The notes beneath the pieces are model-generated. The model was not told where the DNA came from, searched no databases, and saw nothing but the letters and a program-made list of their open reading frames with translations. Of a DNA stretch of 64,000 nucleotides, positions 37,641 to 64,000 are shown one piece after another. The stretch comes from an uncultured Gammaproteobacteria bacterium. GTDB lineage: Bacteria; Patescibacteriota; Patescibacteriia; VMEV01; CAYQCH01. Every line of letters starts with the position of its first letter. Position 1 is the stretch's first letter. A program made the position numbers and the translations under genes. Location: NCBI GenBank assembly GCA_964352335.1, contig CAYGRO010000004.1:42970-106969 (forward strand). The letters run 5' to 3'.

Positions 37641-38231
37641 ATGTCTGAAACATCTAAACCAACTGAATCAAAAGAAGTGACTGAAAAGAAATCAGCTTCT
37701 ACTCCAAATCAAAGAAATGGAGAAAAGCGACAATCTTCTCGTCCAAGACGTCCACGTAAGCCACGTGAAGAACAAGAATTTGATCAAAAAATCATTGATG
37801 TTTCACGTGTTACTCGTGTAACAGAAGGTGGTAAACAAATGTCTTTTAGAGCAACTGTTGCTATTGGAGATAGAAAAGGACGTGTTGCTGTTGGATTAGG
37901 AAAAGGATTAGATGTTACAAATGCTATTAATAAAGCAGTTGGGCGTGCTAAAAAAGACTTAGTAACTATTCCATTAGATGATGTTGGAAGTATTCCACAT
38001 GAGTTAACAGAAAAATTTGGAGCAGCTAAAATCATGATGCGACCAGCAAAACAAGGGACTGGTATTATTGCAGGTGGTGTTATGCGAGTTATTTTAGAAT
38101 TATCTGGTATTAGAAATGTTGTTGGTAAAATGAATGGTGCGAAGAATAAAATTAATAATTCTAAAGCAACTATTGAAGCATTAAAACGTTTACAAACTGA
38201 AACAGCACGAAATGCTCAACGTGGTAAATAA
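37641..38231 (+). CDS. rpsE: Ribosomal protein S5 with a basic N-terminal extension of about 40 aa
   Basis: S5 core. It is directly followed by L15 with no L30 gene between. Confidence 0.92.
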   Translation: MSETSKPTESKEVTEKKSASTPNQRNGEKRQSSRPRRPRKPREEQEFDQKIIDVSRVTRVTEGGKQMSFRATVAIGDRKGRVAVGLGKGLDVTNAINKAVGRAKKDLVTIPLDDVGSIPHELTEKFGAAKIMMRPAKQGTGIIAGGVMRVILELSGIRNVVGKMNGAKNKINNSKATIEALKRLQTETARNAQRGK

Positions 38232-38236
38232 ATCCT

Positions 38237-38680
38237 ATGTCTAACTTACAATCACACAATTTACAAGGTCCAAAAGGTGATGCTAAACGAAAGCGTAAAC
38301 GACTTGGTCGTGGTAATGCTTCTGGTTCAGGAACTTATGCTGGACGTGGTCTTAAAGGACAAAAATCGCGTTCTGGTGTTAGTGGTTTAAAACTAAAAGG
38401 GATTCGTCGAAGAATTCTTTCTATTCCAAAATTACGAGGGTTCACAAGTCTTTCTGCAAAAAATGCAGTAGTAAATCTTGGTGAATTAGAACAGGCTTTC
38501 ACTGCTGGAGCAATTGTTTCTCCAAAAACATTAGTGAAAAAAGGTTTGATTGTTACCCCAAGAAATGGTGTGAAAATTCTTAGCGAAGGATCATTAACAA
38601 AAGCACTTACATTTAGAAAGGTAAAAGCATCAGCTACTGCTAAAGAAAAAATTGAAAAAGCTGGTGGGAAGTTTGAATAA
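38237..38680 (+). CDS. rplO: Ribosomal protein L15
   Basis: Conserved L15 sequence. Confidence 0.92.
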   Translation: MSNLQSHNLQGPKGDAKRKRKRLGRGNASGSGTYAGRGLKGQKSRSGVSGLKLKGIRRRILSIPKLRGFTSLSAKNAVVNLGELEQAFTAGAIVSPKTLVKKGLIVTPRNGVKILSEGSLTKALTFRKVKASATAKEKIEKAGGKFE

Positions 38681-43122: not shown

Positions 43123-44358
43123 ATGGCTAAACGAATTGTTATTTTAGGCGCAGGGATTGCTGGAGCAAAAGCTTTGCGATCTATTCACAAGCAATTTCAT
43201 GATGATAAGCAAACGAGTATAACCGTTGTTGATAAAAATAATTACTCTGCTTTTATCCCAATGATTCATGAATTGGCAACTGGGTCTGTGCAAGTTACTC
43301 ATTTAACACAACCAATCAGAGGACTGATTCATTGTTGTTTAGAACGTTTTATTCAAGCAGAAGTAAAAGGGATTGACCTTGATCAAAAAATTGTAAAAAC
43401 AAGCTCTGGAGAGGTCTTATATGATTATCTGGTTATTGCCATGGGGTCGACAAATAACTATTTTGGAATTCCTGGTGTAGCTGAATATGCTCTTGATTTA
43501 AAAACAATAAAAGATGCACTACGATTAAGAGAGCATATTATTTCTCGGTTTGAACAAGTTGCTCAATTATCAGCTGATGATCCGCATAGAAGAGACCTGC
43601 TTCATTTTGTTCTTATCGGTGCGGGTTATACTGGTGTAGAAACAGCAGGGCAATTAGCTGATTTATTTTCTAAAGAATTACGTGATTTATATCCTGAAGT
43701 TCAAGCCGATGAGCCAAAGATTACCATTGTGCAAGGCAATGATCGGATTTTACCAGTCTTGTCAGAAAAGAGCAGCGAAATTGCAAAAACACGATTAGAA
43801 AAATTAGGTGTAACTGTCCTTACTGGCGTACGTGCAACGGCTGTAACTCCAGAAGGGGTGAGTTTAAATAACGGAACAGTTTTACAATCACATAATGTTA
43901 TTTGGACATCTGGGGTTTTAGCTCGTGGGTTTGAGTTTTTTTCAGATGAGTATCTAGAAAAGGGGAGGGTAAAAGTAAAAGCCACATTACAAATGGAAAA
44001 ATATCCTGAAGTTTTTGCCATAGGTGATATTGCAGGTGTTATTGAAGCGGGTGGGCCACATCCTCAAACAGCTCAATCAGCTGTACAACAAGCTGCCATT
44101 ATTGGAGGTAATATTCAAAAATTATCTGATGGTGAACCTTTAACTCCATTTACTTATAATCATAAAGGAGATTTAGTTCCAATTGGCAATAGATGGGCAA
44201 TTGCAGAAATTAAAAAAGTAAAAATCACAGGTTTTATTTCTTGGTGGATTAGACGAACTGTTTATTTGATGGGAGTTATTTCCTGGTCTGATAGGCTTAG
44301 AATTGTTATCGACTGGACATTGAATCTCTTTAGTCAACGTGATACAACTAAATTATGA
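43123..44358 (+). CDS. ndh: Type II NADH dehydrogenase (FAD-dependent pyridine nucleotide-disulfide oxidoreductase)
   Basis: Two Rossmann motifs: ILGAGIAGAKA and LIGAGYTGVE. Confidence 0.8.
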   Translation: MAKRIVILGAGIAGAKALRSIHKQFHDDKQTSITVVDKNNYSAFIPMIHELATGSVQVTHLTQPIRGLIHCCLERFIQAEVKGIDLDQKIVKTSSGEVLYDYLVIAMGSTNNYFGIPGVAEYALDLKTIKDALRLREHIISRFEQVAQLSADDPHRRDLLHFVLIGAGYTGVETAGQLADLFSKELRDLYPEVQADEPKITIVQGNDRILPVLSEKSSEIAKTRLEKLGVTVLTGVRATAVTPEGVSLNNGTVLQSHNVIWTSGVLARGFEFFSDEYLEKGRVKVKATLQMEKYPEVFAIGDIAGVIEAGGPHPQTAQSAVQQAAIIGGNIQKLSDGEPLTPFTYNHKGDLVPIGNRWAIAEIKKVKITGFISWWIRRTVYLMGVISWSDRLRIVIDWTLNLFSQRDTTKL

Positions 44359-50567: not shown

Positions 50568-50600
50568 GAGTCGTTAAAAAATGTGAAAGCCTCCCTTTCC

Positions 50601-51032
50601 TTAGTGGTTGGGGAGGCTTTGTGATTTCGAAGTGGCCGGGGCTACTTCAGTGGTGTCGATGGGCTTGAAGTCTGGTCCAAGCAGGCGACGATTAATGCGA
50701 TTGCCTTTTTGGTCCGTCGTGAGCTCGATGTAGTTTTCACCAACCTTACGATAGTGGATCAAGTAGTTTGAGTTACTCATTCCGGTGGGGCCCGTTTGTG
50801 AGGGGCTTGGGTCAAGTAGGTTGACCGGTTCCGGAGGAGCTACCGTGAGCAGCTTAGTCACATCAATTGGTGAGAAGAGCGGTTGGGGCTCATCTTGCTT
50901 GTCCTGCACCGTAGCAGGTACTGATGGTTCATTCTGCAGATTCTGGAGATATTGGATCCCGCCACAGAGGCAAATGTCAAAGATGAGCAAGCAAATGCCC
51001 AAGAGGCACAAAGACTTATCTTCTTTATTCAT
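50601..51032 (-). CDS. Membrane-anchored hypothetical protein in a GC-rich island, paralog 1
   Basis: N-terminal TM helix and the C-terminal motif VGENYIELTTDQKGNRINRR. 143 aa. Confidence 0.5.
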   Translation of the reverse strand: MNKEDKSLCLLGICLLIFDICLCGGIQYLQNLQNEPSVPATVQDKQDEPQPLFSPIDVTKLLTVAPPEPVNLLDPSPSQTGPTGMSNSNYLIHYRKVGENYIELTTDQKGNRINRRLLGPDFKPIDTTEVAPATSKSQSLPNH

Positions 51033-51460
51033 CTGGTCTTTTCCTTTTCTGTGGTAACGAACTCTCTGCGGATCTCGTTACCATTTTGGTCTTGGTAGAT
51101 TTTGAAGGTGTTTTTTCCCACCTGCACGGTAATCACGAATTGAGCTGTTGAGAATGATCCAGCTCTCGAGTGACCCGACTCTTGTGCGGCTACACCGCTA
51201 CTAAGCCCAACAATATTACTGTTGAGGTTGACGGTGATGATGGTGGGGATGGGGCTGGCAATTATTTGCTGCGCCATTGGCGCCTTCTTCTTGGTTCGCC
51301 GTTCCGTATCGAGGTTCGTCATGACCAAGAAGAAAGGATAGTAGATGGTGAGCAAAACGATACCCACTTTGATCCAGTACTTTTCTTCTTCCCAGTTTTC
51401 GTTCTTCACTTTGTTTTTACTTTCGTTTAGTGTTTTTCTACAAAGTTCATCATACAGCAT
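51029..51460 (-). CDS. Membrane-anchored hypothetical protein, paralog 2 (start moved to MLYDEL)
   Basis: The C-terminal motif VGKNTFKIYQDQNGNEIRR matches paralog 1. With the internal start the length is also 143 aa. The two genes overlap by 4 nt. Confidence 0.45.
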   Translation of the reverse strand: MLYDELCRKTLNESKNKVKNENWEEEKYWIKVGIVLLTIYYPFFLVMTNLDTERRTKKKAPMAQQIIASPIPTIITVNLNSNIVGLSSGVAAQESGHSRAGSFSTAQFVITVQVGKNTFKIYQDQNGNEIRREFVTTEKEKTR

Positions 51461-51469
51461 TATTCTTGC

Positions 51470-51900
51470 ACAGTGAATTCTACAGAAAAAGGAACGGCCG
51501 CGACACCAAAGGGGAGGTGTCGCGGCCGCTTGCCCGAGGGCATAAGGGGATATGGAGAGCATCGGAGGACGCTCATTGTGGGAGTCCCTAGTTCAAATGA
51601 TTGTTCCACAGCGTTCTTCCTGGTTTCGCTATGGGTCATCTGCACGGGGCCAAGATGGTATACGGGGCTTCACCAACGAGGTTTAGCACGGTCTACGATC
51701 TTATTGGCTGTTCGGGACATGTGTAGGTGGCTGCGTCCCCCAAGAATCATTGGAAAGTGGGGGAGAGGGGGACGCAGCCTTAGTTTTGTAGCTGTCTCAG
51801 AGCAAGGAATCGATGGGGATGGACGGCTAAGCTAATTCGTTTTCGCTTTGCCTACATCAAACTCCACAGTGGTATTCAACGACTTTCCGGTGTTTTTAGC
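51470..51900. other. GC-rich non-coding segment with strong hairpins; candidate structured RNA or leader
   Basis: Hairpins ggccgcgacacc...ggtgtcgcggccgc and gctgcgtccccc...gggggacgcagcc, plus a long-range pairing gctgtctcagagc/gctctgagacaac. The overlapping ORFs have junk-like composition. Confidence 0.25.
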
Positions 51901-52029
51901 TCTGAGACAACAGAAAAAATATATTTGCATAGTTATTAAACAATGTCAAGACTTGCTATTGAGGAAAATCTATGATAAATTTGAGAATAGTTATCAATTT
52001 AACAAGTTTTTTAGCTAAATTTAGCCAAA

Positions 52030-52413
52030 ATGTCTTATCAAACTAGTCAAAAACAAGCGATTTTACAGCATGTGATGCTTTCTAAAAGTCATCCAACAGC
52101 TGATGAAGTCTTTAAAGCAGTCAAATCTGACCTGCCTAGTATTGGTTTTGCCACGGTTTATAGAAATTTAGCGACTTTAGCGAAAGAAGGAAAAATCAAA
52201 GAAGTACAATTTATTGATAAAAAGAAAAGATACGAAGGAAATACCCATCAACATCAACATTTTATTTGTACAAAATGTGAACGTATTGTTGATATGGAAT
52301 TATCTGAATTACTCAATATCAAAGACGCTGTTACAAAAATGCAATGTCATGAGGTGACAGAATATAATCTCGAATTAATTGGTATTTGCGCTGTTTGTAC
52401 AACTGACCACTAA
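52030..52413 (+). CDS. fur: Fur-family metalloregulator (Fur/PerR-like)
   Basis: A winged-helix N-terminus, an HQHQH motif and a C-terminal CxxC pair. Confidence 0.75.
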   Translation: MSYQTSQKQAILQHVMLSKSHPTADEVFKAVKSDLPSIGFATVYRNLATLAKEGKIKEVQFIDKKKRYEGNTHQHQHFICTKCERIVDMELSELLNIKDAVTKMQCHEVTEYNLELIGICAVCTTDH

Positions 52414-52532
52414 CCACTGACGACTGACCACTGACGACTGACCACTGACCACTGACCAATGACAGCTGACTACTGACAATAAACAGTTTAATGTATAGTC
52501 AGTAGTTAATTGTCAGTTGTTCGTTGTAGAAT
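52414..52532. repeat. k-mer-iterated inverted-repeat spacer (cactgac tandem 7-mers then gtcagt)
   Basis: ccactgacgactgaccactgacgactgaccactgaccactgaccaatgacagctgactactgac...gtcagtagttaattgtcagttg. Confidence 0.7.
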
Positions 52533-53666
52533 ATGAAACGAATTTATCTAGACCATGCCGCCACGACTCCAATCGACTCAGAAGTTGCTAATGCTATGCA
52601 ACCTTTTTTGACTGAGCAATTTGGAAATCCTTCTTCTCTTCATCAAGAAGGGAAACAGGCAAGACTTGCTTTAGAAGAAGCTCGAGCAAAGATTGCTACT
52701 TTTTTACATGCACAAAATGAAGAAATAATTTTTACAGGTTCTGGGACAGAAAGTTGTAATCTTGCAATTGTTGGAGTTGCTTATGCTCAAAAAGAAAAAG
52801 GGAAACATCTTATCACAACAAAGGTAGAGCATCATGCTGTTTTAGAATCATTTGAATATTTAGAAAAACAAGGTTGGCAAATTACTTGGTTAGATGTCGA
52901 CGAATTTGGAATGGTCAATGCAAATGATGTGGCCAATGCGATTACTGATCAAACTGTTCTGGTCAGTATTATCATGGCCAATAATGAAGTTGGATCCATT
53001 AACCCTATTAAAGAAATTAATCGACGAGCGAAACAAAAGAATCCAAATGTCCTTGTTCATACAGATGCTTGCCAAGCTACTGGTTATCTAAAACTTGATG
53101 TGAAAAGCCTTGGAGTTGATTTACTTACTATCAATGCTTCTAAAATATACGGGCCAAAAGGAGTTGGTGTTTTGTATAAACAAAAATTAGTTAAACTCGA
53201 TCCTGTCATCCACGGAGGCGGGCAAGAAAAAGGTTTACATTCTGGAACACAAAATGTCCCAGCTATAGTTGGGTTTGCAAAAGCGGTAGAACTGATTAAT
53301 CTAGAGCCTGAATCAATCAAAGAATTACGAGATGAGTTTATTCAATTACTTCAAAAAGAAATCCCATCAATTGTGGTCAACGGTCATTTGGAAAAACGTC
53401 TCCCAAATAATGTAAATGTAAGTATCCCAGCAGTAGATGGGGAGACATTAGTAATCTTTTTAGATCAAAAAGGAATTGCTTGTTCAACAGCCGCTGCCTG
53501 TACAACCGCTTCAACTGAACCATCACATGTATTACTTGCCATGGGAAAAACAGAAGAAGAAGCCAAAAGCTCACTTAGATTCACCCTCGGAAAATCAACC
53601 ACAAAAGAAGATTTACAATATACCGTTGAAAAACTAAAAGAATCAATCCAAACCCTTTCTAAATAA
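52533..53666 (+). CDS. iscS: Cysteine desulfurase (class V aminotransferase, IscS/NifS-like)
   Basis: The N-terminus MKRIYLDHAATTP, the PLP-lysine region SKIYGPKG and a catalytic Cys loop. Confidence 0.85.
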   Translation: MKRIYLDHAATTPIDSEVANAMQPFLTEQFGNPSSLHQEGKQARLALEEARAKIATFLHAQNEEIIFTGSGTESCNLAIVGVAYAQKEKGKHLITTKVEHHAVLESFEYLEKQGWQITWLDVDEFGMVNANDVANAITDQTVLVSIIMANNEVGSINPIKEINRRAKQKNPNVLVHTDACQATGYLKLDVKSLGVDLLTINASKIYGPKGVGVLYKQKLVKLDPVIHGGGQEKGLHSGTQNVPAIVGFAKAVELINLEPESIKELRDEFIQLLQKEIPSIVVNGHLEKRLPNNVNVSIPAVDGETLVIFLDQKGIACSTAAACTTASTEPSHVLLAMGKTEEEAKSSLRFTLGKSTTKEDLQYTVEKLKESIQTLSK

Positions 53667-53702
53667 TATTTTACGCTTTACCAATTTACGCTTTTACATT
53701 CT

Positions 53703-54347
53703 ATGGCCCTATGTGCCCACCACAAACATGATAATGTCGACGGGATCGTGAGAAACGAGCCTTGGGTTGATACTGAGCGAGATTTTGTGAAAGTTTGTCA
53801 TTGTGAGCTTTGTACAAAAGGGAAAGCCGATGAAATCATCGAAACACTTCGAAAACATTTTACAGGGACAACTATGCAATTAGTTGCATCACCTAGCCCT
53901 GGTTCTACTTGCAAAAGAGGGAATAGCGTTATTATTAATGACCAAGTGGCGGTGATTACTGATTTGAATAATTTAGGGCAAAGAATTGATAAAGAAGTAG
54001 AAAGACAAAGGTTACAAAGACAAGATCATCCAGAAGAGAATAAAGATGTGATTAAAGTTTGTTTTGGTCCTAGTTGTGGACATAAAGGAGCAGAAGAAAT
54101 CGAAAAAAATCTTTGGAAACAATATAGTAAGAATGATGATGTAAGAATTATGCGATGCGGGTGTACAGGAAATTGTGCGCAAGCAAATAATGTGGTTGTA
54201 AATGACAATATTATCAATCGCCAAAGTCCATTGAGAGTGTTCAATAATGTCGAAATTGAATTAAGTAAACAAAGAAAAGAAAAAGCTCGAAATTCTGGTC
54301 CATTAACCATGGATGAGGCGGAAGATATTTTGGGGTTGGGGTTTTAA
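53703..54347 (+). CDS. Tandem thioredoxin-like [2Fe-2S] ferredoxin (NuoE-like) protein
   Basis: Two repeats carrying C-x4-C and a downstream Cys cluster: KVCHCELC and KVCFGPSC...CGCTGNC. Confidence 0.55.
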   Translation: MALCAHHKHDNVDGIVRNEPWVDTERDFVKVCHCELCTKGKADEIIETLRKHFTGTTMQLVASPSPGSTCKRGNSVIINDQVAVITDLNNLGQRIDKEVERQRLQRQDHPEENKDVIKVCFGPSCGHKGAEEIEKNLWKQYSKNDDVRIMRCGCTGNCAQANNVVVNDNIINRQSPLRVFNNVEIELSKQRKEKARNSGPLTMDEAEDILGLGF

Positions 54348-54452
54348 AATACCTCCCCTCAATCCCCTCCTAACTTAGGAGGGGAAGGTACGAGACTGTT
54401 TATCTTGTTCCTCCTCCCCTTTGCTAAGGGGGAGGTCGGGAGGGGGTATTGA
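54348..54452. repeat. Pair of GC-rich CCTCC..GGAGG palindromes
   Basis: The sequences cccctcctaacttaggagggg and cctcctcccctttgctaagggggaggtcgggagg. Confidence 0.5.
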
Positions 54453-54482
54453 TCAGCATTATTCAAGTGATAAAACATAAAT

Positions 54483-54806
54483 ATGCCAGTACGAATGTAC
54501 GAAGAAAATGAAATACATGAATGTAAAACTTGTGGTTTAATGCTACAGGTTTCTTTGGCTGCTGTTCCGATTGAACCGCTTATTTGTTGTGGGAGCTTAA
54601 TGGCATATTTAAAAAAGCATGAAAAACCAGAAGAAGTATTTGATCTGACACAAAAACCAGTTTTACCAAATGCTAAAGAAACTATTTATACAAAAGGGGA
54701 GAAATATACTTGTTCGCTTTGTGGTATTGAAGTTCTTATTCTTAGAACATCTCAACCTATTGATATGCTCGATTGTTGCGGAGAAGGTATGGAATTAATG
54801 AACTAA
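54483..54806 (+). CDS. Tandem desulforedoxin-domain protein
   Basis: Two copies of the Y-x-C-x2-C-G...CCGE-x-M pattern: ECKTCGLMLQV...LICCGSLM and YTCSLCGIEVLIL...LDCCGEGMEL. Confidence 0.65.
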   Translation: MPVRMYEENEIHECKTCGLMLQVSLAAVPIEPLICCGSLMAYLKKHEKPEEVFDLTQKPVLPNAKETIYTKGEKYTCSLCGIEVLILRTSQPIDMLDCCGEGMELMN

Positions 54807-54842
54807 CTAATGTGTTTGTCTTGTATTAGGTACTAGACGAGC

Positions 54843-55427
54843 ATGCTATTTAAATCATTAAGACAAAAAATTATGGAAGACCATGATATGATGCATTTCT
54901 CTCCACGTTTGGTGGGAAATCCTGCTCCATTATGGAAAATGGACGGAGTTAAAAAAGAAGATTTTCACTCTCACTCACTAGAAGATTATAAAGGAAAATG
55001 GTTGGTAATGTTTTTTTACCCATTAGATTTTACCTTTGTTTGTCCAACAGAAATTAAAGGTTTTGATAAAGAAGTAGAAAAATTCCGAGAAATGAATGCA
55101 GAAGTTGTAGGTGTTTCTACAGATTCAGTTCATTCTCATAAAGCATGGATTGCTCGAGACTTTGGTGGAGAGCTCAATATCCCATTGCTTTCAGATATGA
55201 CAAAAAATGTTGCTTACGACTATGGAGTTCTTTTAGAAGATGAAGGAATTGCTTTACGAGGAACATTTATTATCGACCCAGAAGGAGTTGTAAAATACGC
55301 TGTTGTTTCTGACAATAATGTAGGACGTTCTGTTTCTGAAACTTTACGTGTTCTAAAAGCATTACAATCTGGTGACCTTTGTCCAATTGATTGGGAAGAA
55401 GGACAAGATACTTTAGGGAAGGCTTAA
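54843..55427 (+). CDS. Peroxiredoxin (AhpC/TSA family, Prx6-like)
   Basis: The peroxidatic FTFVCPTEI motif and C-terminal LCPIDW. Confidence 0.85.
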   Translation: MLFKSLRQKIMEDHDMMHFSPRLVGNPAPLWKMDGVKKEDFHSHSLEDYKGKWLVMFFYPLDFTFVCPTEIKGFDKEVEKFREMNAEVVGVSTDSVHSHKAWIARDFGGELNIPLLSDMTKNVAYDYGVLLEDEGIALRGTFIIDPEGVVKYAVVSDNNVGRSVSETLRVLKALQSGDLCPIDWEEGQDTLGKA

Positions 55428-55460: not shown

Positions 55461-55488
55461 AAAAGCGCTCGTTTGGGCGCTTTTTTGT
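55461..55488 (+). terminator. Terminator hairpin after prx; its 3' half is the left copy of a 19-bp direct repeat
   Basis: aaaagcgctcgtttgggcgctttttt. Confidence 0.6.
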
Positions 55489-55545
55489 GTTGACAAAAAA
55501 GAAAAAATATGCTATCATTTTCCCAGTCTTGTTCCTGGAGGATGT

Positions 55546-58743: not shown

Positions 58744-60552
58744 ATGACACCATCTTCTCCTAATGCTTTTACAAAAACAGCTCCAACTTCTGTTGGGGTA
58801 GATGCGAAAAGAAAAGAAATTCCTTTAAGCCAAACAGCAAAAGTGGTTGCAGAGAAACGGTATTTAACGAGAGATGAAAATGGAAATGTAAATGAAACCG
58901 TTTACGATATGTTTAAACGTGTTGCCGATAATATCGCTTCTGGTGATAAATTTTACGGAGCAACCGATGAACAAGTAGCACAAGTTTCGGAAGACTTTTT
59001 AGAAATGATGGTTGACCTCGAATTTTTAGCGGGGATGACTTTAAGAAATGCTGGTCGAGAATTACAACAATTGTCGGCTTGTTATGTTTTACCCATGGAA
59101 GATTCCATGGACTCTATTTATACAACCTTAAAAAATGCAGCCAAGTTGCATAAAACAGGTGCAGGAATTGGATACGACTTTTCTAAACTTCGGCCAAAAA
59201 ATGCAGAAGTAAAAACAACTGGAGGAAAATCTTGTGGTCCAGTTGGTTTCATGAAGCTCATTGAATTCTCTTGTGACACAATCGTCAATTCTGCTGCCAC
59301 TCGTCGGGCGGGGAATATGGGGATTTTACGTATTGATCATCCAGATATTGATGAATTTTTATCTGCGAAAGAAGATAATTCTCAATTAAATAATTTTAAT
59401 ATCTCTGTAAACGGTACCGATGTTTTTATGGAAGCCGTTAAAAATGGAACAACCTACGATATTACAGATCCACATACAGGAAAAATAGTAGAACAAAGAG
59501 ATGCACGACAAATGTTTGACCGCATTATCGAAAAAGCATGGCGTTCTGCGGAACCAGGGATGATCTTTTTTGATGAAGTAAACCGATATAATCCAACACC
59601 ACAATTGGGGCCAATGTCTGCAACGAATCAATGTGGGGAACAACCATTATTCCCATATGAAGCTTGTAATTTAGGTTCTATCGTTTTAAATCGCATGGTG
59701 CAAAAAACACCAAATGGTTTAACAGAAATCGATTGGGAAAAATTAGAAGACCGAGTACGCAAAGCCGTTCACTTTTTAGATAATACAATCGACCTTAATA
59801 ACTACCCATTAGAAGAATTACGCAAAATGAATCATGCGAACCGGCGAATTGGTCTTGGTGTCATGGGGTTTGCAGATTTATTAATCGAATTAGGGATTCC
59901 TTATAATTCAGAAGAAGGGGTAAAGACGGCAGAAGTTGTCATGAAGTTTATCCAAGAAAAATCTCATGATGAAAGCCGACGGTTAGCAAAAGAACGAGGA
60001 AGTTTTCCTAACTTCAAAGGTTCTCGATGGGAACGATTAGGGTATACAGAAATGCGAAATGCCACTGTAACAACGATTGCTCCAACAGGGACAACAAGTA
60101 TTTTTGCAGGATGTTCATCTGGAATTGAACCAATTTTCTCTTTGGTCTATGTTCGAAAAAATATTTTAGACCAAGATAAAGATTCGTTTATGGAAGTTCA
60201 TCCGCTCTTTGAAGAAAAGCTCAAAGAAAAGTGGCTCTACAATAAAGATATTCTAGAACAAGCAGCTCAACTAGGTTCATTAGAAAAGGTAAACGGAATT
60301 CCAGAAGACTTAAAACATGTTTTTGTCACCTCACATGATATTGCTCCAGAATGGCATGTCAAAATTCAAGCGGCTTTTCAGAAACATACAGATAATGCCG
60401 TTTCGAAAACAGTAAATATGCCACATGAATCGACCAAAGAAGATGTTGCTAATGTGTATATGATGGCTTATGAGACTGGATGTAAGGGAGTAACGATTTA
60501 CCGAGATGGAAGTCGGGATAAACAGGTACTTAACTTAGTTAAAAAGAAATAA
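58744..60552 (+). CDS. nrdJ: Class II (adenosylcobalamin-type, NrdJ-like) ribonucleotide reductase, module 1
   Basis: The thiyl-radical loop TNQCGEQPL, the active-site Cys pairs SACYVLP and EACNLGS, and the CSSGIEP motif. 602 aa. Confidence 0.8.
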   Translation: MTPSSPNAFTKTAPTSVGVDAKRKEIPLSQTAKVVAEKRYLTRDENGNVNETVYDMFKRVADNIASGDKFYGATDEQVAQVSEDFLEMMVDLEFLAGMTLRNAGRELQQLSACYVLPMEDSMDSIYTTLKNAAKLHKTGAGIGYDFSKLRPKNAEVKTTGGKSCGPVGFMKLIEFSCDTIVNSAATRRAGNMGILRIDHPDIDEFLSAKEDNSQLNNFNISVNGTDVFMEAVKNGTTYDITDPHTGKIVEQRDARQMFDRIIEKAWRSAEPGMIFFDEVNRYNPTPQLGPMSATNQCGEQPLFPYEACNLGSIVLNRMVQKTPNGLTEIDWEKLEDRVRKAVHFLDNTIDLNNYPLEELRKMNHANRRIGLGVMGFADLLIELGIPYNSEEGVKTAEVVMKFIQEKSHDESRRLAKERGSFPNFKGSRWERLGYTEMRNATVTTIAPTGTTSIFAGCSSGIEPIFSLVYVRKNILDQDKDSFMEVHPLFEEKLKEKWLYNKDILEQAAQLGSLEKVNGIPEDLKHVFVTSHDIAPEWHVKIQAAFQKHTDNAVSKTVNMPHESTKEDVANVYMMAYETGCKGVTIYRDGSRDKQVLNLVKKK

Positions 60553-60665: not shown

Positions 60666-60729
60666 ATAAATAAATTAACATGCTTGTCTTCACCTCGCTT
60701 TCGGGCAAGGTGAGCGTGATCCCACTATT

Positions 60730-63700
60730 ATGACCGCAAAACAAATAATGGCGAAAGTCAAACCAAATCTAGCAGAACAATCTCTGGCCGTTGCTCAAAA
60801 ACGGTATATGAAAACAGATGAACAAGGGAATCCTACAGAAACCCCAGAAGAAATGTTCTACCGAGTTGCCGAATTTTTAGCTTCTGGTGATAAAAAGATT
60901 AATCCAAATGCAGATACAACGGCTTTGGCTGAATCTTTTTACCAAATGATGGCTAAGTTAGAATTTGTTCCTGGTGGACGAGCTTTTTTTGAAGCTGGTA
61001 ATGACCATACGGGTCAAATGGCTTCTTGTTTTGTCCTTCCTATTGAAGACACAATGGAAGGTATTTTTCAAACATTAAAAGATGCGGCGATTACTCAACA
61101 AAATAATGGTGGAACTGGTTTTAATTTTTCTAAAGTTCGACCAAAAGGAGATACAGTAAATGGAGTGCCTGGAGTTGCGGCTGGGCCATTACATTATATT
61201 CGAAGTTTCGACCAAGCATTTAGTAAGGTTTTGCAAGGTGGGAAACGTCATGGTGGGAATATGGGAGTCTTAAATGTAGACCATCCTGATATTGAAGAAT
61301 TTATTCGATTAAAAGATTCTGGTTCTGATATTAAAAACTTTAATATTTCTGTTGGGGTGACAAATGCATTCATGGAAGCTGTTCGTATGGATACGAGTTG
61401 GGATTTGATTAATCCTTCTACAAAAGAAGTCACAAAAACAGTTCAAGCTAAAGAAATTTTTGACGCTATTATTGAACGTGCGCATAAATGCGCTGACCCT
61501 GGGTTATTATTTATTGACCATGTAGCAGACGGAAACAATAATGCGCATCTTTACGATATGGTGGCAACAAACCCTTGTGGGGAACAACCACTTGGTCCGT
61601 ATGAAAGTTGTAATTTAGGTTCATTAATTTTGTCTAATCATGTTACACCTGCTGGGCAAGTAGATTGGCAAAAATTACAAAGAACATCAAAATTAGCGAC
61701 TCGGTTCATGGATAATATGATCGAGTTAAATAAATATCCTATTCCGGCGATTGACTACATGGTTCGCCAAACCCGAAAAATTGGAATTGGTGTAATGGGA
61801 TTTGCCCAAATGCTTTATAAACTTAATATTCCTTATTCTTCTCAAGAAGCAGTCGATTTGATCGAAAAAATCATGAAGACGATTCATACTTCTATTGAAG
61901 AAGAAAGCATGGTTTTGGCAGAAGAAAGAGGAGTATACCCAGCGTGGAAAGGTTCTCGATGGGAAGAAAAAGGAATCAAAATTCGAAATTCTCATTTAAC
62001 TTCTATTGCTCCAACAGGAACAATTTCAATGCTTGCAAATACATCATCTGGAATTGAGCCTTACTTTAACTTGGTAACAATTCGAAAATCATTTTATAAC
62101 CAAGGAGGAAGCGACAATAATACAGCCAATGCAGAAACATTAAGAATCGTAGCTGATGACTTTGAACGTGTGGCCAAAGAACGAGGGTTTTATTCTGATG
62201 AATTAATGGATCGTATTGCTGAAGAAGGAAGTGTTCAAGGATTTGCAGAAATCCCTCAAGATGTAAAAGATATTTTTGTTACAAGTAGAGATGTTGCTCC
62301 ACAATGGCATGTGAAAATTCAAGCAGCTGCACAAAAATGGACAGATGCTGCCGTTTCAAAAACAGTAAACTTGCCAAATGACGCAACAATTGAAGATGTG
62401 CGCCAAACGTATATTCTTGCTTATGAAACAAAATGTAAGGGAGTAACTATTTACCGTGATGGATCTAAATCTGACCAAGTATTGTCACTTAAAAAGAAGG
62501 CTGAAGACAAAGCGCCTGCAACTGCAGAGATCAAAGTTCCTGTGGTACAAACAGCTCCAATATCTCAACCTGTTGCACATCCTGTGTCTACAAGTACTTC
62601 TGTAAATAAACCGCTTATTACTGGTGACGTAAATCCAGAAGCGATTATTACCAAAAATGCACAAACTGTTTTACAAAAACGTGCACTCAAAAAAGATGAC
62701 CAAGGAACTGTGGTAGAAAATCCAGAAGATTTATTCCACCGTGTAGCACGGTTTATGGCTAGTCCAGAAAAACAATATGATGTGCCAGAACAACGAATAG
62801 CAGAAATTCAAGATAAATTTTACGGAATGCTTTCTCGGCTCGAATTTATTGCTGGTCAACCATTGAGAAATTCAGAAACAAATTTAACCATGTCTGCTTG
62901 TTTGGTATTGCCTATTGAAGACAATATCGAAGGGATTATGCAAACGATTTCTGAAAATGTTTTTGCGCATAAATCTACTTGTGGAACGGGTATTAACTAT
63001 TCTCGTATCCGAATGAAAGGGTCTGGTGTAGGAGAAGTTGGTCCTATTGCTGCTGGTCCTGTGCATTTTATGAAAGCGGTTTCGGTTGCACAAAAAACCA
63101 TTCAAACCAAAGGTGGTCGTTCTCAAGGAAGTATGGGGATTTTAAATGTGGACCACCCAGATATCGACGCCTTTATTAAAGCGAAAGATATTGAAGGAGA
63201 ATTCGATAATATGAATATCTCGGTTGGAGCAACCGATAAATTCATGGAAGCTCTACGAAATGACGCAGAATATGACATGTACGACCCAGGAGAAAAGAAA
63301 GTGGTTAGCAAAATGCGAGCCAAAGATATGTTCGATAAAATTGCTGAACATGCATGGGTAAGTGGAGATCCAGGGTTAATTTTTGTGGACCGATTAGAAA
63401 GAGATAATCCAACACCAAGTTTAGGGATTTTAGATGCAACTAACCCATGTGGAGAACAACCATTATTACCGTATGAAACATGTAATTTAGGTTCTATTGT
63501 TTTATCTCGCATGGTTAAACCAGATGCACAAGGAAATCCGGTAATTGACTGGGATAAATATGCAGAAACAATTTATTATTCTGTACGTTTCTTAGACAAT
63601 AGTATTGATGTAAACAATTTCCCGTTAGCAAAAGTAGAACAAATGTCTAAAGGAACTCGACGTATTGGTCTAGGAGCTATGGGGTTTGCAGATTTACTTA

Positions 63701-64000
63701 TTAAATTAGGTATTCCTTATAATTCAAATGAAGCGGTAGAACTGGCAGAAGAAATGATGAAATTCTTAAATGACCATGCACATAAAGCAACTGAAGAAAT
63801 CGGTGCAGAAAAAGGGTCTTTCCCATACTTTGATATTTCTGTTTGGCCTGAACGCGGTGTTAAGGCACGAAGAAATTCTGCGGTAACAACTATTGCGCCA
63901 ACTGGGTATACAAGTATCGTTGCTAATTGTTCTTCTGGAATCGAACCTATTTACGCTTTGGCTTTCCGTCGAGAAAACTCTATGGGAGGAACAGATCAAT
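60730..64000 (+). CDS. nrdJ: Fused tandem class II ribonucleotide reductase (modules 2 and 3 in one ORF), 3'-truncated by the window edge
   Basis: Frame 1 is open from the ATG at 60730 to the window end. Module 2 carries ASCFVLP, TNPCGEQPL and ESCNLGS. A roughly 50-aa P/V/A/T-rich linker follows at about 62490-62650. Module 3 carries SACLVLP, TNPCGEQPL and ETCNLGS. Confidence 0.75.
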   Translation, partial: MTAKQIMAKVKPNLAEQSLAVAQKRYMKTDEQGNPTETPEEMFYRVAEFLASGDKKINPNADTTALAESFYQMMAKLEFVPGGRAFFEAGNDHTGQMASCFVLPIEDTMEGIFQTLKDAAITQQNNGGTGFNFSKVRPKGDTVNGVPGVAAGPLHYIRSFDQAFSKVLQGGKRHGGNMGVLNVDHPDIEEFIRLKDSGSDIKNFNISVGVTNAFMEAVRMDTSWDLINPSTKEVTKTVQAKEIFDAIIERAHKCADPGLLFIDHVADGNNNAHLYDMVATNPCGEQPLGPYESCNLGSLILSNHVTPAGQVDWQKLQRTSKLATRFMDNMIELNKYPIPAIDYMVRQTRKIGIGVMGFAQMLYKLNIPYSSQEAVDLIEKIMKTIHTSIEEESMVLAEERGVYPAWKGSRWEEKGIKIRNSHLTSIAPTGTISMLANTSSGIEPYFNLVTIRKSFYNQGGSDNNTANAETLRIVADDFERVAKERGFYSDELMDRIAEEGSVQGFAEIPQDVKDIFVTSRDVAPQWHVKIQAAAQKWTDAAVSKTVNLPNDATIEDVRQTYILAYETKCKGVTIYRDGSKSDQVLSLKKKAEDKAPATAEIKVPVVQTAPISQPVAHPVSTSTSVNKPLITGDVNPEAIITKNAQTVLQKRALKKDDQGTVVENPEDLFHRVARFMASPEKQYDVPEQRIAEIQDKFYGMLSRLEFIAGQPLRNSETNLTMSACLVLPIEDNIEGIMQTISENVFAHKSTCGTGINYSRIRMKGSGVGEVGPIAAGPVHFMKAVSVAQKTIQTKGGRSQGSMGILNVDHPDIDAFIKAKDIEGEFDNMNISVGATDKFMEALRNDAEYDMYDPGEKKVVSKMRAKDMFDKIAEHAWVSGDPGLIFVDRLERDNPTPSLGILDATNPCGEQPLLPYETCNLGSIVLSRMVKPDAQGNPVIDWDKYAETIYYSVRFLDNSIDVNNFPLAKVEQMSKGTRRIGLGAMGFADLLIKLGIPYNSNEAVELAEEMMKFLNDHAHKATEEIGAEKGSFPYFDISVWPERGVKARRNSAVTTIAPTGYTSIVANCSSGIEPIYALAFRRENSMGGTDQ

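What the first reader, a model, noticed from the sequence alone, without database searches (positions are those of the whole stretch)
52030..55427. Redox and Fe-S cluster locus with tandem-domain metalloproteins
The locus reads: Fur-family regulator, cysteine desulfurase, a protein with two thioredoxin-like [2Fe-2S] (NuoE-type CxxxxC...CxxxC) repeats, a 107-aa protein made of two desulforedoxin modules (Y-x-C-x2-C-G...CCGE-x-M, the Fe(Cys)4 domain otherwise found at the N-terminus of desulfoferrodoxin), and a Prx6-like peroxiredoxin. A free-standing double desulforedoxin is unusual. Together with PerR/Fur and Prx it looks like an anaerobe-type oxidative stress module in which electron carriers are duplicated in tandem. 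Domain doubling recurs elsewhere in this window (LOG x2 at 16710-18146, RNR x3).
Basis: partly seen in the sequence, partly recalled or inferred. Interest (0 to 1): 0.6.

Follow-up and report, generated by a model that had tools for sequence, protein, structure and literature searches.

The report
PerR-type Fe-S/peroxide operon, fused-dimer carriers
A small-genome (candidate phyla radiation) bacterium carries a conserved five-gene operon that combines iron-sulfur cluster building, a peroxide-destroying enzyme and two small redox proteins that are each a single-chain fusion of what is normally a two-subunit protein; the parts are known families, but the double desulforedoxin and its tie to iron-sulfur assembly are uncharacterised.

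Summary
All five ORFs exist at the stated coordinates. They form one unit, bounded by a Fur-type box at 51982-51996 and a terminator near 55462-55490. The order is: PerR-like regulator, NifS-type cysteine desulfurase, tandem thioredoxin-like ferredoxin, tandem desulforedoxin (2xDx), then a typical 2-Cys Prx1/AhpC peroxiredoxin, not Prx6.

The 2xDx is real. All eight Cys are invariant in 22 homologues. The two modules match each other (hhalign E=4e-15). The AF2 model (pLDDT 93.6) superposes on desulforedoxin at 0.7 A.

The ferredoxin has two homologous repeats, but only the C-terminal one keeps C-x4-C...C-x3-C. The N-terminal one has Ser at ligand 3 and an extra Cys.

The order Fd-2xDx-Prx recurs in 8 loci, and 2xDx-Prx in a ninth. 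Five loci carry NifU plus a single Fd. Three, including the window, lack NifU, have a NifS without the IscU-binding tail, and carry the doubled Fd. Distant 96-aa 2xDx relatives sit beside Rrf2-SufCB.

Best reading: a peroxide-responsive Fe-S assembly/repair plus peroxide-scavenging operon, with both carriers being fused homodimers. The 2xDx function itself is inferred, not shown. Free-standing tandem Dx is rare but not unique; another family has at least 146 clusters.

Novelty: new variant of a known kind. Interest: 0.5.

The parts
51982..51996 (.). Fur-family 7-1-7 operator candidate, TGAGAATAGTTATCA, 34 nt upstream of the regulator start codon
   Evidence: It has 2 mismatches to TGATAATNATTATCA. 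The 64-kb window has 3 such hits against 0.67 expected. A box with 2 or fewer mismatches lies 19-48 nt (measured box start to ATG) upstream of the regulator gene in 5 of 5 loci. It is a perfect consensus in L002 and a perfect palindrome in L003.
52030..52413 (+). PerR-like Fur-family regulator (127 aa). Structural Zn site C80/C83/C120/C123. Regulatory site H21/E69/H75/H77/D88.
   Evidence: PF01475, E=1.8e-26. Best NCBIfam hits are PerR models, but far below their cutoffs. Best PDB hit is B. subtilis PerR 2fe3 (E=5e-23), with a gapless alignment that maps the PerR ligands. Asp at the PerR-104 position is the PerR signature (PMC4866751).
52533..53666 (+). NifS/IscS-type class I cysteine desulfurase (377 aa) lacking the C-terminal scaffold-binding tail
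   Evidence: PF00266, E=6e-80. NF002806 scores 320.6 (cutoff 304). TIGR03402 NifS scores 458.8, below its cutoff of 530.75. It ends about 22 residues before the clade-B orthologues. The missing segment corresponds to IscS 376-404, which is needed for IscU binding (PMC2854127).
53703..54347 (+). Tandem thioredoxin-like ferredoxin (214 aa): N-terminal Cys/His tag, two Fd units, and a conserved C-terminal DEAExILGL tail
53751..54020 (+). Fd unit 1 (residues 17-106), non-canonical: invariant C32, C34, C37, C70, with Ser65 at ligand position 3
   Evidence: No Pfam hit when scored alone. It is homologous to the single-domain Fd (33% identity, E=6e-17). Ligand columns were mapped on solved structures.
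54021..54302 (+). Fd unit 2 (residues 107-200), canonical [2Fe-2S] ligand set C120-x4-C125...C154-x3-C158
   Evidence: PF01257 scores 28.4 bits (cutoff 24.8). The unit profile hits FdsB 7e5z at E=2.5e-11 with the four Cys in register.
54483..54806 (+). Single-chain double desulforedoxin (2xDx, 107 aa)
54492..54611 (+). Dx module 1 (residues 4-43): C14-x2-C17-x17-C35C36, with invariant His12 where Dx has Tyr
   Evidence: Alone it scores 15 bits on PF06397, below the cutoff. hhalign against module 2 gives E=3.8e-15, and against D. gigas Dx 94% probability. All its Cys are invariant.
54681..54800 (+). Dx module 2 (residues 67-106): C77-x2-C80-x17-C98C99, with an LDCCGEGME motif
   Evidence: Alone it scores 23.6 bits on PF06397. 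phmmer hits PDB desulforedoxin. hhalign against Dx gives 96% probability.
54843..55427 (+). Typical 2-Cys peroxiredoxin (Prx1/AhpC type). C_P lies in FVCPTE and C_R in LCPIDW. The real start may be Met11 at 54873.
   Evidence: PF00578, E=2e-40. Best NCBIfam hits are AhpC and PrxU, both below their cutoffs. Best PDB relatives are Prx3/4/2/1, with both Cys aligned. The gene caller's start gives 184 aa.
55462..55490 (+). Intrinsic terminator closing the operon: AAAAAGCGC-TCGTTTGG-GCGCTTTTT, then a T run
   Evidence: Read directly from the sequence. It is immediately followed by a strong promoter-like site, TTGACA-17-TATCAT, at 55490-55518 for the next gene.

Best explanation
The locus is one autoregulated operon of a probable Parcubacteria/CPR bacterium: a PerR-like repressor, NifS, a tandem Trx-like ferredoxin, a tandem desulforedoxin and a 2-Cys peroxiredoxin.

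Shown:
- The gene identities and the domain architecture.
- The operator upstream of the regulator and the terminator after the Prx.
- Conservation of the gene order in 8 loci, with 2xDx-Prx also seen in a ninth, truncated locus.
- Both small carriers are internal duplications of units whose free-standing relatives are homodimers, so each is a single-chain pseudo-dimer in which the N-terminal unit has diverged.

Inferred:
- When peroxide oxidises the PerR-type sensor, the operon is derepressed.
- It then supplies together (i) sulfur mobilisation and Fe-S cluster building or repair, and (ii) H2O2 removal by the Prx.
- In part (i), NifS acts with NifU in the ancestral form of the operon. The Trx-like ferredoxin supplies the redox function that the Cys-less middle domain of this NifU cannot provide.
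- The 2xDx carries two Fe(Cys)4 centres and works with the ferredoxin. Their genes are translationally coupled in some loci. Its most likely role is accessory electron or iron handling for Fe-S assembly or repair. Reducing the Prx is less likely, because the Prx needs a dithiol reductase encoded elsewhere.

The window carries the derived form of the operon: NifU is lost, the NifS scaffold-binding tail is lost, and the ferredoxin is duplicated.
For: Identities.

2xDx:
- All 8 Cys are invariant.
- The two modules are homologous (E=3.8e-15).
- The AF2 model has pLDDT 93.6 and pTM 0.84, including an ordered linker.
- It superposes on desulforedoxin 1cfw at 0.7 A and on the Dfx N-domain at 1.0 A.

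Homodimer precedent:
- The PDB holds 6 entries and 12 chains of the 36-aa Dx.
- FeSI and Fd4 are homodimers (PMC8561814).

Operon:
- A Fur-type box is present in 5 of 5 loci that include the regulator's upstream region.
- Intergenic gaps are as small as 2-14 nt (L005), and fd and dx overlap in L011 and L014.
- A terminator follows the Prx.

Synteny: Fd-2xDx-Prx recurs in 8 non-redundant loci, and 2xDx-Prx in L016.

Fe-S link independent of the Prx: the 96-aa 2xDx relatives are followed by an Rrf2 regulator in 2 of 2 loci. In L008 this continues with SufC (271 bits, above the 212.8 cutoff) and SufB.

The clade-B NifU keeps the three IscU Cys, but its BFD-like domain has no Cys. A trans-acting ferredoxin is therefore plausible.

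Clade-A changes that occur together: no NifU, a NifS shortened by 22 C-terminal residues, and a doubled Fd. IscS(del376-404) cannot bind IscU (PMC2854127).

PerR-type ligand set: H21/E69/H75/H77/D88.
Against: - No metal content, redox potential or interaction has been measured. A Cys4 knuckle can bind Zn.
- Dx-like centres typically sit near 0 mV (PMC7482061). That is too positive to reduce a Trx-like ferredoxin or a persulfide efficiently.
- Prx adjacency (9 of 9 loci) is as constant as NifS/NifU adjacency, so synteny within the main family cannot separate an Fe-S role from a peroxide role.
- The SUF link rests on two loci of relatives that are only about 35% identical.
- The operator matches the B. 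subtilis Fur consensus (G at position 2, C at position 14) rather than the PerR consensus. That comparison is from my own recall. The regulator is also far below every NCBIfam PerR cutoff.
- B. licheniformis PerR3, which shares the Glu85/Asp104-type ligand set, lacked PerR-like repressor activity on a PerR-regulated promoter (PMC4866751). The ligand set therefore does not guarantee PerR function.
- Co-transcription is inferred. The window has 119-nt and 135-nt spacers containing hairpins.
- Only 64 kb of the genome was seen, so a scaffold (IscU/SufBCD) and Trx/TrxR may lie elsewhere.
Confidence: 0.55

Rival explanations
1. The operon is a pure anaerobe-type oxidative-stress module. Electrons flow from the Trx-like ferredoxin to the 2xDx and on to the peroxiredoxin, or to an unseen superoxide- or peroxide-reducing partner. 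NifS is present only to repair the carriers' own metal centres.
For: - The Prx directly follows the 2xDx in 9 of 9 loci.
- The regulator is PerR-like.
- Dx-type domains are the electron-entry modules of desulfoferrodoxin and desulforubrerythrin, and PerR-linked clusters in clostridia contain a desulfoferrodoxin (PMC7482061).
- The clade-B Prx carry Cys-rich N-terminal extensions containing CC pairs, which could form a metal or redox relay site.
Against: - The Prx is a typical 2-Cys enzyme with C_P and C_R. Its disulfide needs a two-electron dithiol donor, and no Trx-type CxxC reductase or flavoprotein is in the operon.
- No SOR, rubrerythrin or flavodiiron gene is nearby.
- The model does not explain the NifU gene in 5 loci, or the Rrf2-SufCB context of the distant relatives.
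Confidence: 0.2
2. This rival concerns the NifU-less clade, which includes the window. The tandem ferredoxin has taken over NifU's job. Its diverged N-terminal unit has C-x-C-x2-C...C plus an N-terminal Cys/His tag. That unit accepts persulfide sulfur from the tail-less NifS and serves as the assembly site. The canonical C-terminal unit and the 2xDx provide electrons or iron. This would be a new minimal Fe-S machinery.
For: - Four changes occur together in all 3 clade-A loci and in none of the 5 clade-B loci: NifU absent, the 22-residue IscU-binding tail of NifS absent, the Fd doubled with a new invariant Cys34 and a Cys/His N-terminus, and the Prx lacking the Cys-rich extension.
- The nifS and fd genes are 1 nt apart in L009 and L003.
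- No IscU or SufBC is present in the 64-kb window.
Against: - Only 3 loci support it, and they are related to each other.
- The rest of the genome is unseen, so a SUF system may exist elsewhere.
- Nothing shows that the N-unit binds a labile cluster.
- Loss of ligand 3 may simply mean an inactive structural pseudo-subunit.
- NifS may serve other sulfur-transfer pathways.
Confidence: 0.12
3. The 107-aa protein is a non-redox double zinc ribbon. It would act as a structural protein, a regulatory protein or a chaperone, and it resembles desulforedoxin only in fold.
For: - The N-module is below the Pfam cutoff and weakly hits several Zn-ribbon families.
- Sources label relatives of the other tandem family variously as zinc-ribbon proteins.
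- The Dx site accepts other metals: 1cfw is a Ga-substituted Dx.
Against: - The diagnostic adjacent CC pair and the CCGEGM motif of Dx are invariant.
- It shares 39% identity with true Dx at 0.7 A rmsd.
- Its constant neighbours are redox and Fe-S proteins.
Confidence: 0.1

Closest known systems
Desulforedoxin (Desulfovibrio gigas Dx; Pfam PF06397 Desulfoferrod_N; PDB 1dxg/1cfw)
   Same: - It has the same C-x2-C...CC four-Cys knuckle and the same fold (0.7 A over 36 residues, 39% identity).
- The CCGE-x-M motif is kept in module 2.
- There are two metal sites per functional particle.
   Different: - Dx is a homodimer of 36-aa chains. Here two modules are fused by an ordered linker of about 30 residues into one 107-aa chain.
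- The loop between the Cys pairs is 2 residues longer (x17 versus x15).
- Module 1 has an invariant His in place of the Tyr before the first Cys, and it lacks the GE of CCGE.
- The genomic context is an Fe-S assembly/Prx operon in CPR bacteria.
Short tandem-Dx proteins of Deferrisoma, Planctomycetota and other MAGs (P0037 type, 81-88 aa; unnamed 'hypothetical protein')
   Same: - They are free-standing proteins made of two PF06397 modules, with the same x17 loop.
- They are also uncharacterised.
   Different: - They match the window family profile only marginally (E about 1e-4).
- The linker is almost absent, and the two modules are near-identical to each other.
- The context differs: one example overlaps MqnB/MqnA-like genes and follows a single Dx gene.
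Thioredoxin-like [2Fe-2S] ferredoxins (A. vinelandii FeSI 5abr, Aquifex Fd4 1f37, C. pasteurianum 2Fe Fd; NuoE/NDUFV2/HydC/FdsB-G domains; PF01257)
   Same: - The C-terminal unit has the NuoE-type C-x4-C...C-x3-C ligands in register.
- FeSI sits in the A. vinelandii nif cluster (PMC8561814), which parallels the NifS/NifU neighbourhood here.
   Different: - The free-standing relatives are homodimers. Here two units are fused.
- The N-terminal unit has Ser at ligand 3 and an extra Cys.
- It also has an N-terminal Cys/His tag and a conserved C-terminal DEAExILGL tail that are not part of the Pfam model.
NIF-type minimal Fe-S system NifS-NifU (and IscS-IscU)
   Same: - Clade-B loci encode NifS (about 405 aa, with the C-terminal tail) followed by a NifU with the three IscU Cys.
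- The window's NifS is orthologous to these (54-77% identity).
   Different: - The window has no NifU, and its NifS lacks the tail needed for IscU binding.
- Even in clade B, the BFD-like domain of NifU has no Cys and the Nfu-type C-terminal domain is absent.
PerR regulons of anaerobic Firmicutes (C. acetobutylicum, C. difficile)
   Same: A Fur-family PerR-type repressor is linked to genes for peroxide or superoxide defence, including Dx-domain proteins (PMC7482061).
   Different: - Here the regulated genes are NifS/(NifU)/ferredoxin/2xDx/Prx rather than rubrerythrin, Dfx or flavodiiron proteins.
- The operator looks Fur-like.
- The ligand set has Glu at the PerR-Asp85 position, as in B. licheniformis PerR3 (PMC4866751).

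Membership tests
Desulforedoxin / Desulfoferrod_N (PF06397) | Profile HMM score at or above the gathering cutoff | tested here: met
   The whole protein scores 27.5 bits against a cutoff of 23, and all 22 of 22 family members hit. Scored alone, module 2 reaches 23.6 bits (met) and module 1 only 15 bits (below cutoff).
Desulforedoxin / Desulfoferrod_N (PF06397) | Four Cys arranged as C-x2-C ... adjacent CC | tested here: met
   Both modules have the motif and all 8 Cys are invariant. The spacing is x17 rather than x15. Both modules align to Dx with a 2-residue insertion.
Desulforedoxin / Desulfoferrod_N (PF06397) | Dx fold | tested here: met
   [not shown]
Desulforedoxin / Desulfoferrod_N (PF06397) | Homodimer of about 36-aa chains | tested here: not met
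   This is a single 107-aa chain with two modules. It is interpreted as a fused pseudo-dimer.
Desulforedoxin / Desulfoferrod_N (PF06397) | Binds Fe in a distorted tetrahedral Cys4 site and is redox active | not testable with these tools
   This needs metal analysis, UV-vis/EPR spectroscopy and a redox titration.
Thioredoxin-like [2Fe-2S] ferredoxin (PF01257, NuoE type) | Profile HMM score at or above the cutoff | tested here: met
   The whole protein scores 33 bits against a cutoff of 24.8. The C-unit alone scores 28.4 bits. The N-unit alone gets no hit.
   The C-unit has C120, C125, C154 and C158 in register with FdsB/HydC/NfnC. The N-unit has an invariant Ser65 at ligand 3 and an extra invariant Cys34.
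Thioredoxin-like [2Fe-2S] ferredoxin (PF01257, NuoE type) | Thioredoxin-like fold resembling NuoE/Fd4/FeSI | tested here: met
   [not shown]
PerR (peroxide-sensing Fur-family repressor) | Fur-family fold with a structural Zn(Cys)4 site | tested here: met
   PF01475, E=1.8e-26. C80, C83, C120 and C123 align to PerR C96/C99/C136/C139 (PMC4866751).
PerR (peroxide-sensing Fur-family repressor) | Regulatory site His37/Asp85/His91/His93/Asp104, with Asp (not Glu) at position 104 | tested here: met
   The equivalent residues are H21/E69/H75/H77/D88, so Asp is at the 104 position. Glu replaces Asp85, as in B. licheniformis PerR3.
PerR (peroxide-sensing Fur-family repressor) | Curated equivalog score | tested here: not met
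   The best score is NF052545 at 91.6 bits against a cutoff of 180. All Fur, Zur and Irr models are also far below their cutoffs.
PerR (peroxide-sensing Fur-family repressor) | PerR-type operator, and H2O2-driven His oxidation | tested here: inconclusive
   A conserved 7-1-7 box is present in 5 of 5 loci, but its sequence fits the B. subtilis Fur consensus better than the PerR consensus (consensus recalled from memory). The oxidation chemistry is not testable here.
NifS/IscS class I cysteine desulfurase | Family HMM, PLP-Lys and catalytic Cys loop | tested here: met
   PF00266 scores 269 bits. NF002806 scores 320.6 against a cutoff of 304. The SKIYGPKG and AACT segments are conserved across the orthologues. 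The TIGR03402 NifS equivalog is below its cutoff (458.8 vs 530.75).
NifS/IscS class I cysteine desulfurase | C-terminal helix/tail that binds the IscU/NifU scaffold | tested here: not met
   The window protein ends at about position 378 of the 402-position IscS profile. It lacks the 22 residues present in clade-B orthologues. IscS(del376-404) does not bind IscU (PMC2854127).
Typical 2-Cys peroxiredoxin (Prx1/AhpC subfamily) | AhpC-TSA domain, with peroxidatic Cys in FVCPTE and resolving Cys near the C-terminus | tested here: met
   PF00578, E=2e-40. The alignment to Prx3 (5jcg) covers both the FVCPTE and (V/L)CP(A/I)(N/D)W motifs. The AhpC equivalog score of 157 is below its cutoff of 272.
   A resolving Cys is present. 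The best relatives are Prx1-4/AhpC, not Prx6.

The most novel reading that the evidence does not exclude
In the lineage that includes this window, NifU has been discarded. A three-protein set would then constitute a previously undescribed minimal Fe-S cluster assembly machinery: a NifS without the scaffold-binding tail, a fused asymmetric Trx-like ferredoxin, and a single-chain double desulforedoxin. The ferredoxin's diverged N-terminal unit would act as sulfur acceptor and assembly site. The double desulforedoxin would supply electrons or iron. More broadly, the 2xDx would be a dedicated accessory factor of both NIF- and SUF-type systems in CPR bacteria, and that would give desulforedoxin-type proteins a physiological role.
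Probability: 0.12. Interest if true: 0.8.

Novelty: new variant of a known kind. Interest (0 to 1): 0.5.

Why it matters
- **Unknown role of Dx.** To my knowledge, the physiological role of free desulforedoxin-type proteins is still unknown. My library searches found no paper on tandem desulforedoxins or on a Dx link to Fe-S assembly.
- **Open questions in Fe-S biogenesis.** Also to my knowledge, the electron and iron donors of the NIF- and SUF-type systems remain open questions.
- **A concrete candidate.** The Dx-type protein here is small and strictly conserved. It is tied to Fe-S assembly genes in reduced CPR genomes, in two different system contexts (NIF-like and SUF). It should be easy to express and test.
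- **A natural experiment.** The two operon forms differ in three linked ways: NifU present or absent, NifS tail present or absent, and ferredoxin single or doubled. This bears on how a cysteine desulfurase changes partners.
- **A general point.** Both cases illustrate a wider evolutionary route. Fusing a homodimeric redox carrier into one chain frees one half to diverge.
- **If the conservative reading holds.** The locus is then a tidy but ordinary stress and Fe-S operon built from known families.

Tried and rejected
- **Rfam.** No family reaches gathering score anywhere in the window. In E-value mode on 50900-52030 there was only a weak CcsR1-like hairpin (22 bits against a gathering score of 65). 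I rejected this as an RNA gene.
- **tRNAs.** None found.
- **Fur/PerR boxes upstream of the dx and prx genes.** None, even allowing 3 mismatches.
- **NifU/IscU, SufB/C and thioredoxin in the window (tblastn, plus a CxxC motif scan).** None found.
- **Taxonomy.** Cluster look-ups returned no names for the window's proteins. I rejected the 'uncultured Gammaproteobacteria' titles of three TPA MAGs for three reasons. One family member is from a Parcubacteria MAG. The window lacks L30 between S5 and L15. My recollection is that L30 absence is typical of CPR and that Gammaproteobacteria have L30.
- **Metagenome scans.** The P0032/P0033 profile found nothing. The family profile found only one short contig. 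The genome scan found 3 loci.
- **Literature.** No paper in the library covers tandem desulforedoxin, Dx with Fe-S assembly, Trx-like ferredoxin with cysteine desulfurase, or Fe-S systems of Patescibacteria.
- **'Prx6-like'.** Rejected.
- **GC-rich hairpins in the fd-dx spacer.** They are not a dispersed repeat.
- **Metal-site geometry.** It could not be measured because model coordinates are not exposed by the tools.

Full report
**1. Observation**

- **52030-52413.** Pfam assigns it to the Fur family (E=1.8e-26).
- **52533-53666.** It is a class-V aminotransferase / cysteine desulfurase (E=6e-80). It passes the IscS-subfamily model NF002806 (320.6 vs 304). It falls below the NifS equivalog cutoff.
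- **53703-54347.** It matches 2Fe-2S_thioredx over residues 113-179 only.
- **54483-54806.** It matches Desulfoferrod_N (27.5 bits vs cutoff 23, two stretches).
- **54843-55427.** It matches AhpC-TSA (E=2e-40).
- **Side claims.** Both hold. The LOG protein has two Lysine_decarbox stretches. A stand-alone RNR is followed by an ORF with two RNR units that runs off the window.

**2. The double desulforedoxin**

*Rarity and conservation*
- The word-indexed search of 5.8 billion proteins returned only 24 clusters, all about 105 aa. One is from a Parcubacteria MAG.
- The exhaustive profile search of 1.84 billion representatives returned 9 hits.
- In an alignment of 22 members, all eight cysteines are invariant: C14, C17, C35, C36, C77, C80, C98 and C99.

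*Scoring each half alone*
- Module 2 just reaches the Pfam cutoff (23.6 bits). Module 1 does not (15 bits).
- Profile-profile comparison of the two modules gives 98.5% probability, E=3.8e-15. The alignment is gapless over 40 columns with the four Cys in register.
- Both modules align to D. gigas desulforedoxin with the same 2-residue loop insertion, C-x2-C-x17-CC.

*Structure*
- The AF2 model is confident throughout, linker included (pLDDT 93.6, pTM 0.84).
- Foldseek found nothing.
- The refutation criterion (HMMs fail, or Cys spacing incompatible) is therefore not met for this protein.

*Is the architecture unique?*
- No. The profile search also picked up tandem-Dx proteins of 83-88 aa.
- Searching with one of them found at least 146 clusters, including Deferrisoma camini and Planctomycetota/Brocadiaceae MAGs. 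All are labelled hypothetical or given generic names.
- That family has almost no linker. In one locus it overlaps MqnB/MqnA-like genes.

**3. The double ferredoxin**

*Homologues and repeats*
- Only seven homologues were found.
- In related operons, the same position is occupied by a 123-aa single-domain ferredoxin with the same leader and the same C-terminal DEAExILGL tail.
- That single-domain protein matches both halves of the window protein: 51% identity (E=6e-28) and 33% identity (E=6e-17). The two-repeat observation is therefore correct.

*Ligands*
- I aligned all units and anchored them to solved FdsB, HydA/HydC, NfnC and NDUFV2 domains.
- The C-terminal unit has the canonical C120-x4-C125...C154-x3-C158.
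- The N-terminal unit has an invariant Ser65 at ligand 3 and an additional invariant Cys34, giving C32-x-C34-x2-C37...C70. It gets no Pfam hit on its own.

*Fold*
- The AF2 model (pLDDT 70.5) has the same secondary-structure pattern in both halves.
- Whether the N-unit binds a cluster cannot be decided here.

**4. Regulator, peroxiredoxin and operon boundaries**

*Regulator*
- Its best solved relative is B. subtilis PerR (2fe3, E=5e-23), with a gapless alignment. This places H21/E69/H75/H77/D88 on PerR H37/D85/H91/H93/D104, and C80/C83/C120/C123 on the structural Zn site.
- PMC4866751 states that PerR proteins keep Asp at position 104 where Fur has Glu. It also reports that B. licheniformis PerR3 has Glu at position 85. 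The window protein has exactly that PerR3-like set.
- In that paper, PerR3 was oxidised by H2O2 at histidine residues. It lacked PerR-like repressor activity on a PerR-regulated promoter.
- The window protein is far below all NCBIfam equivalog cutoffs.

*Operator*
- A 7-1-7 box, TGAGAATAGTTATCA, lies at 51982-51996. The 64-kb window has 3 such hits against 0.67 expected.
- A box with 2 or fewer mismatches lies 19-48 nt upstream of the regulator gene in all five loci where that region is available. L002 has the perfect consensus, and L003 has a perfect palindrome.
- It is usually the only match in about 12 kb of locus.
- No box precedes the dx or prx gene.
- By my recollection of the B. subtilis consensus sequences, the box is more Fur-like than PerR-like.

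*Peroxiredoxin*
- It aligns best to Prx3/4/2/1, with both the peroxidatic (FVCPTE) and resolving (LCPIDW) cysteines. It is a typical 2-Cys Prx1/AhpC enzyme, not Prx6.

*End of the operon*
- A terminator hairpin with a T run follows the Prx at about 55462-55490. A strong promoter-like site for the next gene comes directly after it.

**5. Comparative genomics**

*The two operon forms*
- Across non-redundant loci the order ferredoxin, 2xDx, Prx is invariant.
- A further short contig shows 2xDx followed by Prx.
- Gaps can be as small as 2-14 nt (L005). The fd and dx genes overlap in L011 and L014.
- Clade B (L002/L012, L005, L010, L011, L014) reads regulator-NifS-NifU-Fd(123 aa)-2xDx-Prx, as far as each contig extends upstream.
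- Clade A (window/L001, L009, L003/L004/L013) reads regulator-NifS-Fd(about 210 aa)-2xDx-Prx.

*Features that differ between the clades*
- Clade-B NifU keeps the three IscU cysteines, but its BFD-like middle domain has no Cys.
- Clade-A NifS lacks the last 22 residues. The equivalent E. coli IscS segment (helix alpha12) contacts IscU, and IscS(del376-404) does not bind IscU (PMC2854127).
- Clade-B Prx carry Cys-rich N-terminal extensions that no curated model covers. Clade-A Prx do not.
- The window therefore carries a derived form in which three changes coincide: loss of the scaffold gene, loss of the scaffold-binding tail, and duplication of the ferredoxin.

*Distant relatives*
- The two distant full-length 2xDx relatives (96 aa, P0032 and P0033) are each followed by an Rrf2 regulator.
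- In L008 this continues with SufC (271 bits, above cutoff) and SufB.
- This is a second link between the 2xDx and Fe-S assembly. It involves a different assembly system, and no Prx is visible on those short contigs.

**6. Organism**

- The window is ordinary bacterial chromosome. It carries EF-G, EF-Tu, ribosomal protein operons, SecY, RecQ, FBPase, aldolase and CysRS.
- L15 starts 5 nt after S5, so there is no L30 gene between them. Together with the Parcubacteria label of one family member, this points to CPR/Patescibacteria.
- I regard the 'uncultured Gammaproteobacteria' titles of three TPA MAGs as unreliable.
- That L30 absence is typical of CPR is from my own knowledge.

**7. Mechanism**

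*Established*
- Free-standing Trx-like ferredoxins are homodimers (PMC8561814).
- The 36-aa Dx occurs as 12 chains in 6 PDB entries. It is, to my knowledge, a homodimer.
- The simplest account of the 'domain doubling' is therefore gene fusion of homodimeric carriers into single-chain pseudo-dimers. Fusion then allowed the N-terminal units to diverge.

*Proposed (inferred)*
- The PerR-type repressor releases the operon under peroxide stress.
- NifS, with NifU where present, and the ferredoxin rebuild Fe-S clusters, while the Prx removes H2O2.
- The 2xDx acts with the ferredoxin as an accessory Fe(Cys)4 electron or iron handler.

*Why direct reduction of the Prx is less likely*
- A 2-Cys Prx needs a dithiol donor, and none is encoded in the operon.

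*Weaknesses*
- Dx-like centres sit near 0 mV (PMC7482061).
- Metal identity is unknown.
- Prx adjacency is as constant as the Fe-S adjacency.
- Only 64 kb of the genome was visible.

*Confidence*
- Identity and architecture are well supported, at about 0.9.
- The functional assignment of the 2xDx stands at about 0.4.

**8. Novelty**

- All domains belong to known families.
- New elements are: the CPR-specific long-linker 2xDx family, its constant placement in Fe-S/Prx operons, the asymmetric tandem ferredoxin, and the natural NifU-less, tail-less NifS variant.
- No paper in the searchable library describes any of these.
- I classify the finding as a new variant of a known kind, with moderate interest (0.5).
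- The bolder reading is that NifS-Fd2-2xDx form a new minimal Fe-S machinery. The evidence does not exclude it, but only three related loci support it (probability about 0.12).

Noticed in passing
window 52402-52477 (and 52494-52527): A heptamer tandem array, (ACTGACC) x 10.9 (TRF score 103), begins in the last codons of the regulator gene and fills the regulator-nifS spacer. An imperfect inverted partner follows it, so the spacer could form a long hairpin. The related loci have shorter spacers here (3-113 nt).
   Followed up: partly
window 54352-54446: The 135-nt fd-dx spacer holds two GC-rich hairpins: TCCCCTCCTAA/TTAGGAGGGGA, and CCTCCCCTTT/AAGGGGGAGG, which contains CCTCCTCCC. They are local rather than a dispersed repeat. 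L009 has only a 3-nt spacer at this position. They may act as an internal attenuator or as an mRNA-stability element.
   Followed up: partly
window 50600-51900: A GC-rich segment (45-60% against about 36% for the window) lies between the UvrD gene and the operon. It has two minus-strand ORFs (50601-51032 and 51029-51562) and a 15-bp GC hairpin at 51493-51530. The only Rfam hit is a weak CcsR1-like match (22 bits against a gathering score of 65). In L003, UvrD is followed directly by the regulator, so this looks like an insertion in the window lineage.
   Followed up: partly
L002 6386-6952; L005 6333-6902; L010 1948-2535; L011 1629-2192; L016 327-944: The peroxiredoxins of NifU-containing operons carry Cys-rich N-terminal extensions with 3-8 Cys, often including CC pairs (for example MEGSCDMNEGCCGGDCGCGSGSGCGDMSEDCG). 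No curated model covers them. The window's Prx and the other clade-A Prx lack them.
   Followed up: partly
L002 4867-5514 and orthologues in L005, L010, L011, L014: The 215-aa NifU of the related operons keeps the three IscU-type Cys. Its BFD-like middle domain contains no cysteine, and there is no Nfu-type C-terminal domain.
   Followed up: partly
window 37641-38680: Ribosomal protein S5 is followed 5 nt later by L15, with no L30 gene between them. This is consistent with a CPR/Patescibacteria origin. It conflicts with the 'uncultured Gammaproteobacteria' titles of related TPA MAG contigs (L012-L014).
   Followed up: yes
window 16710-18146; 58744-60552; 60727-64000: The LOG-family protein has two Lysine_decarbox/SLOG units. 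One stand-alone RNR is followed by an ORF with two RNR units that runs off the window end. RNR genes lie 3-5 kb downstream of the operon in most of the related loci with enough downstream flank (not in L005).
   Followed up: partly
window 43123-44358: An NDH-2-like pyridine-nucleotide-disulfide oxidoreductase (Pyr_redox_2 plus NDH2_C) lies 8 kb upstream. It is a possible NAD(P)H entry point for the small redox carriers.
   Followed up: no
L006 4816-6834: In a Deferrisomatales-like MAG, a 62-aa single Dx and an 88-aa tandem Dx overlap by 4 nt with genes matching PNP_UDP_1 and VitK2_biosynth, which I read as MqnB-like and MqnA-like futalosine-pathway genes. An Nfu-type NifU domain gene and a rubrerythrin gene lie within 2.3 kb.
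   Followed up: no
L008 1286-3531; L015 353-984: The 96-aa distant double-Dx relatives are each followed by an Rrf2 (IscR/SufR-like) regulator. In L008 this is followed by SufC and SufB.
   Followed up: yes
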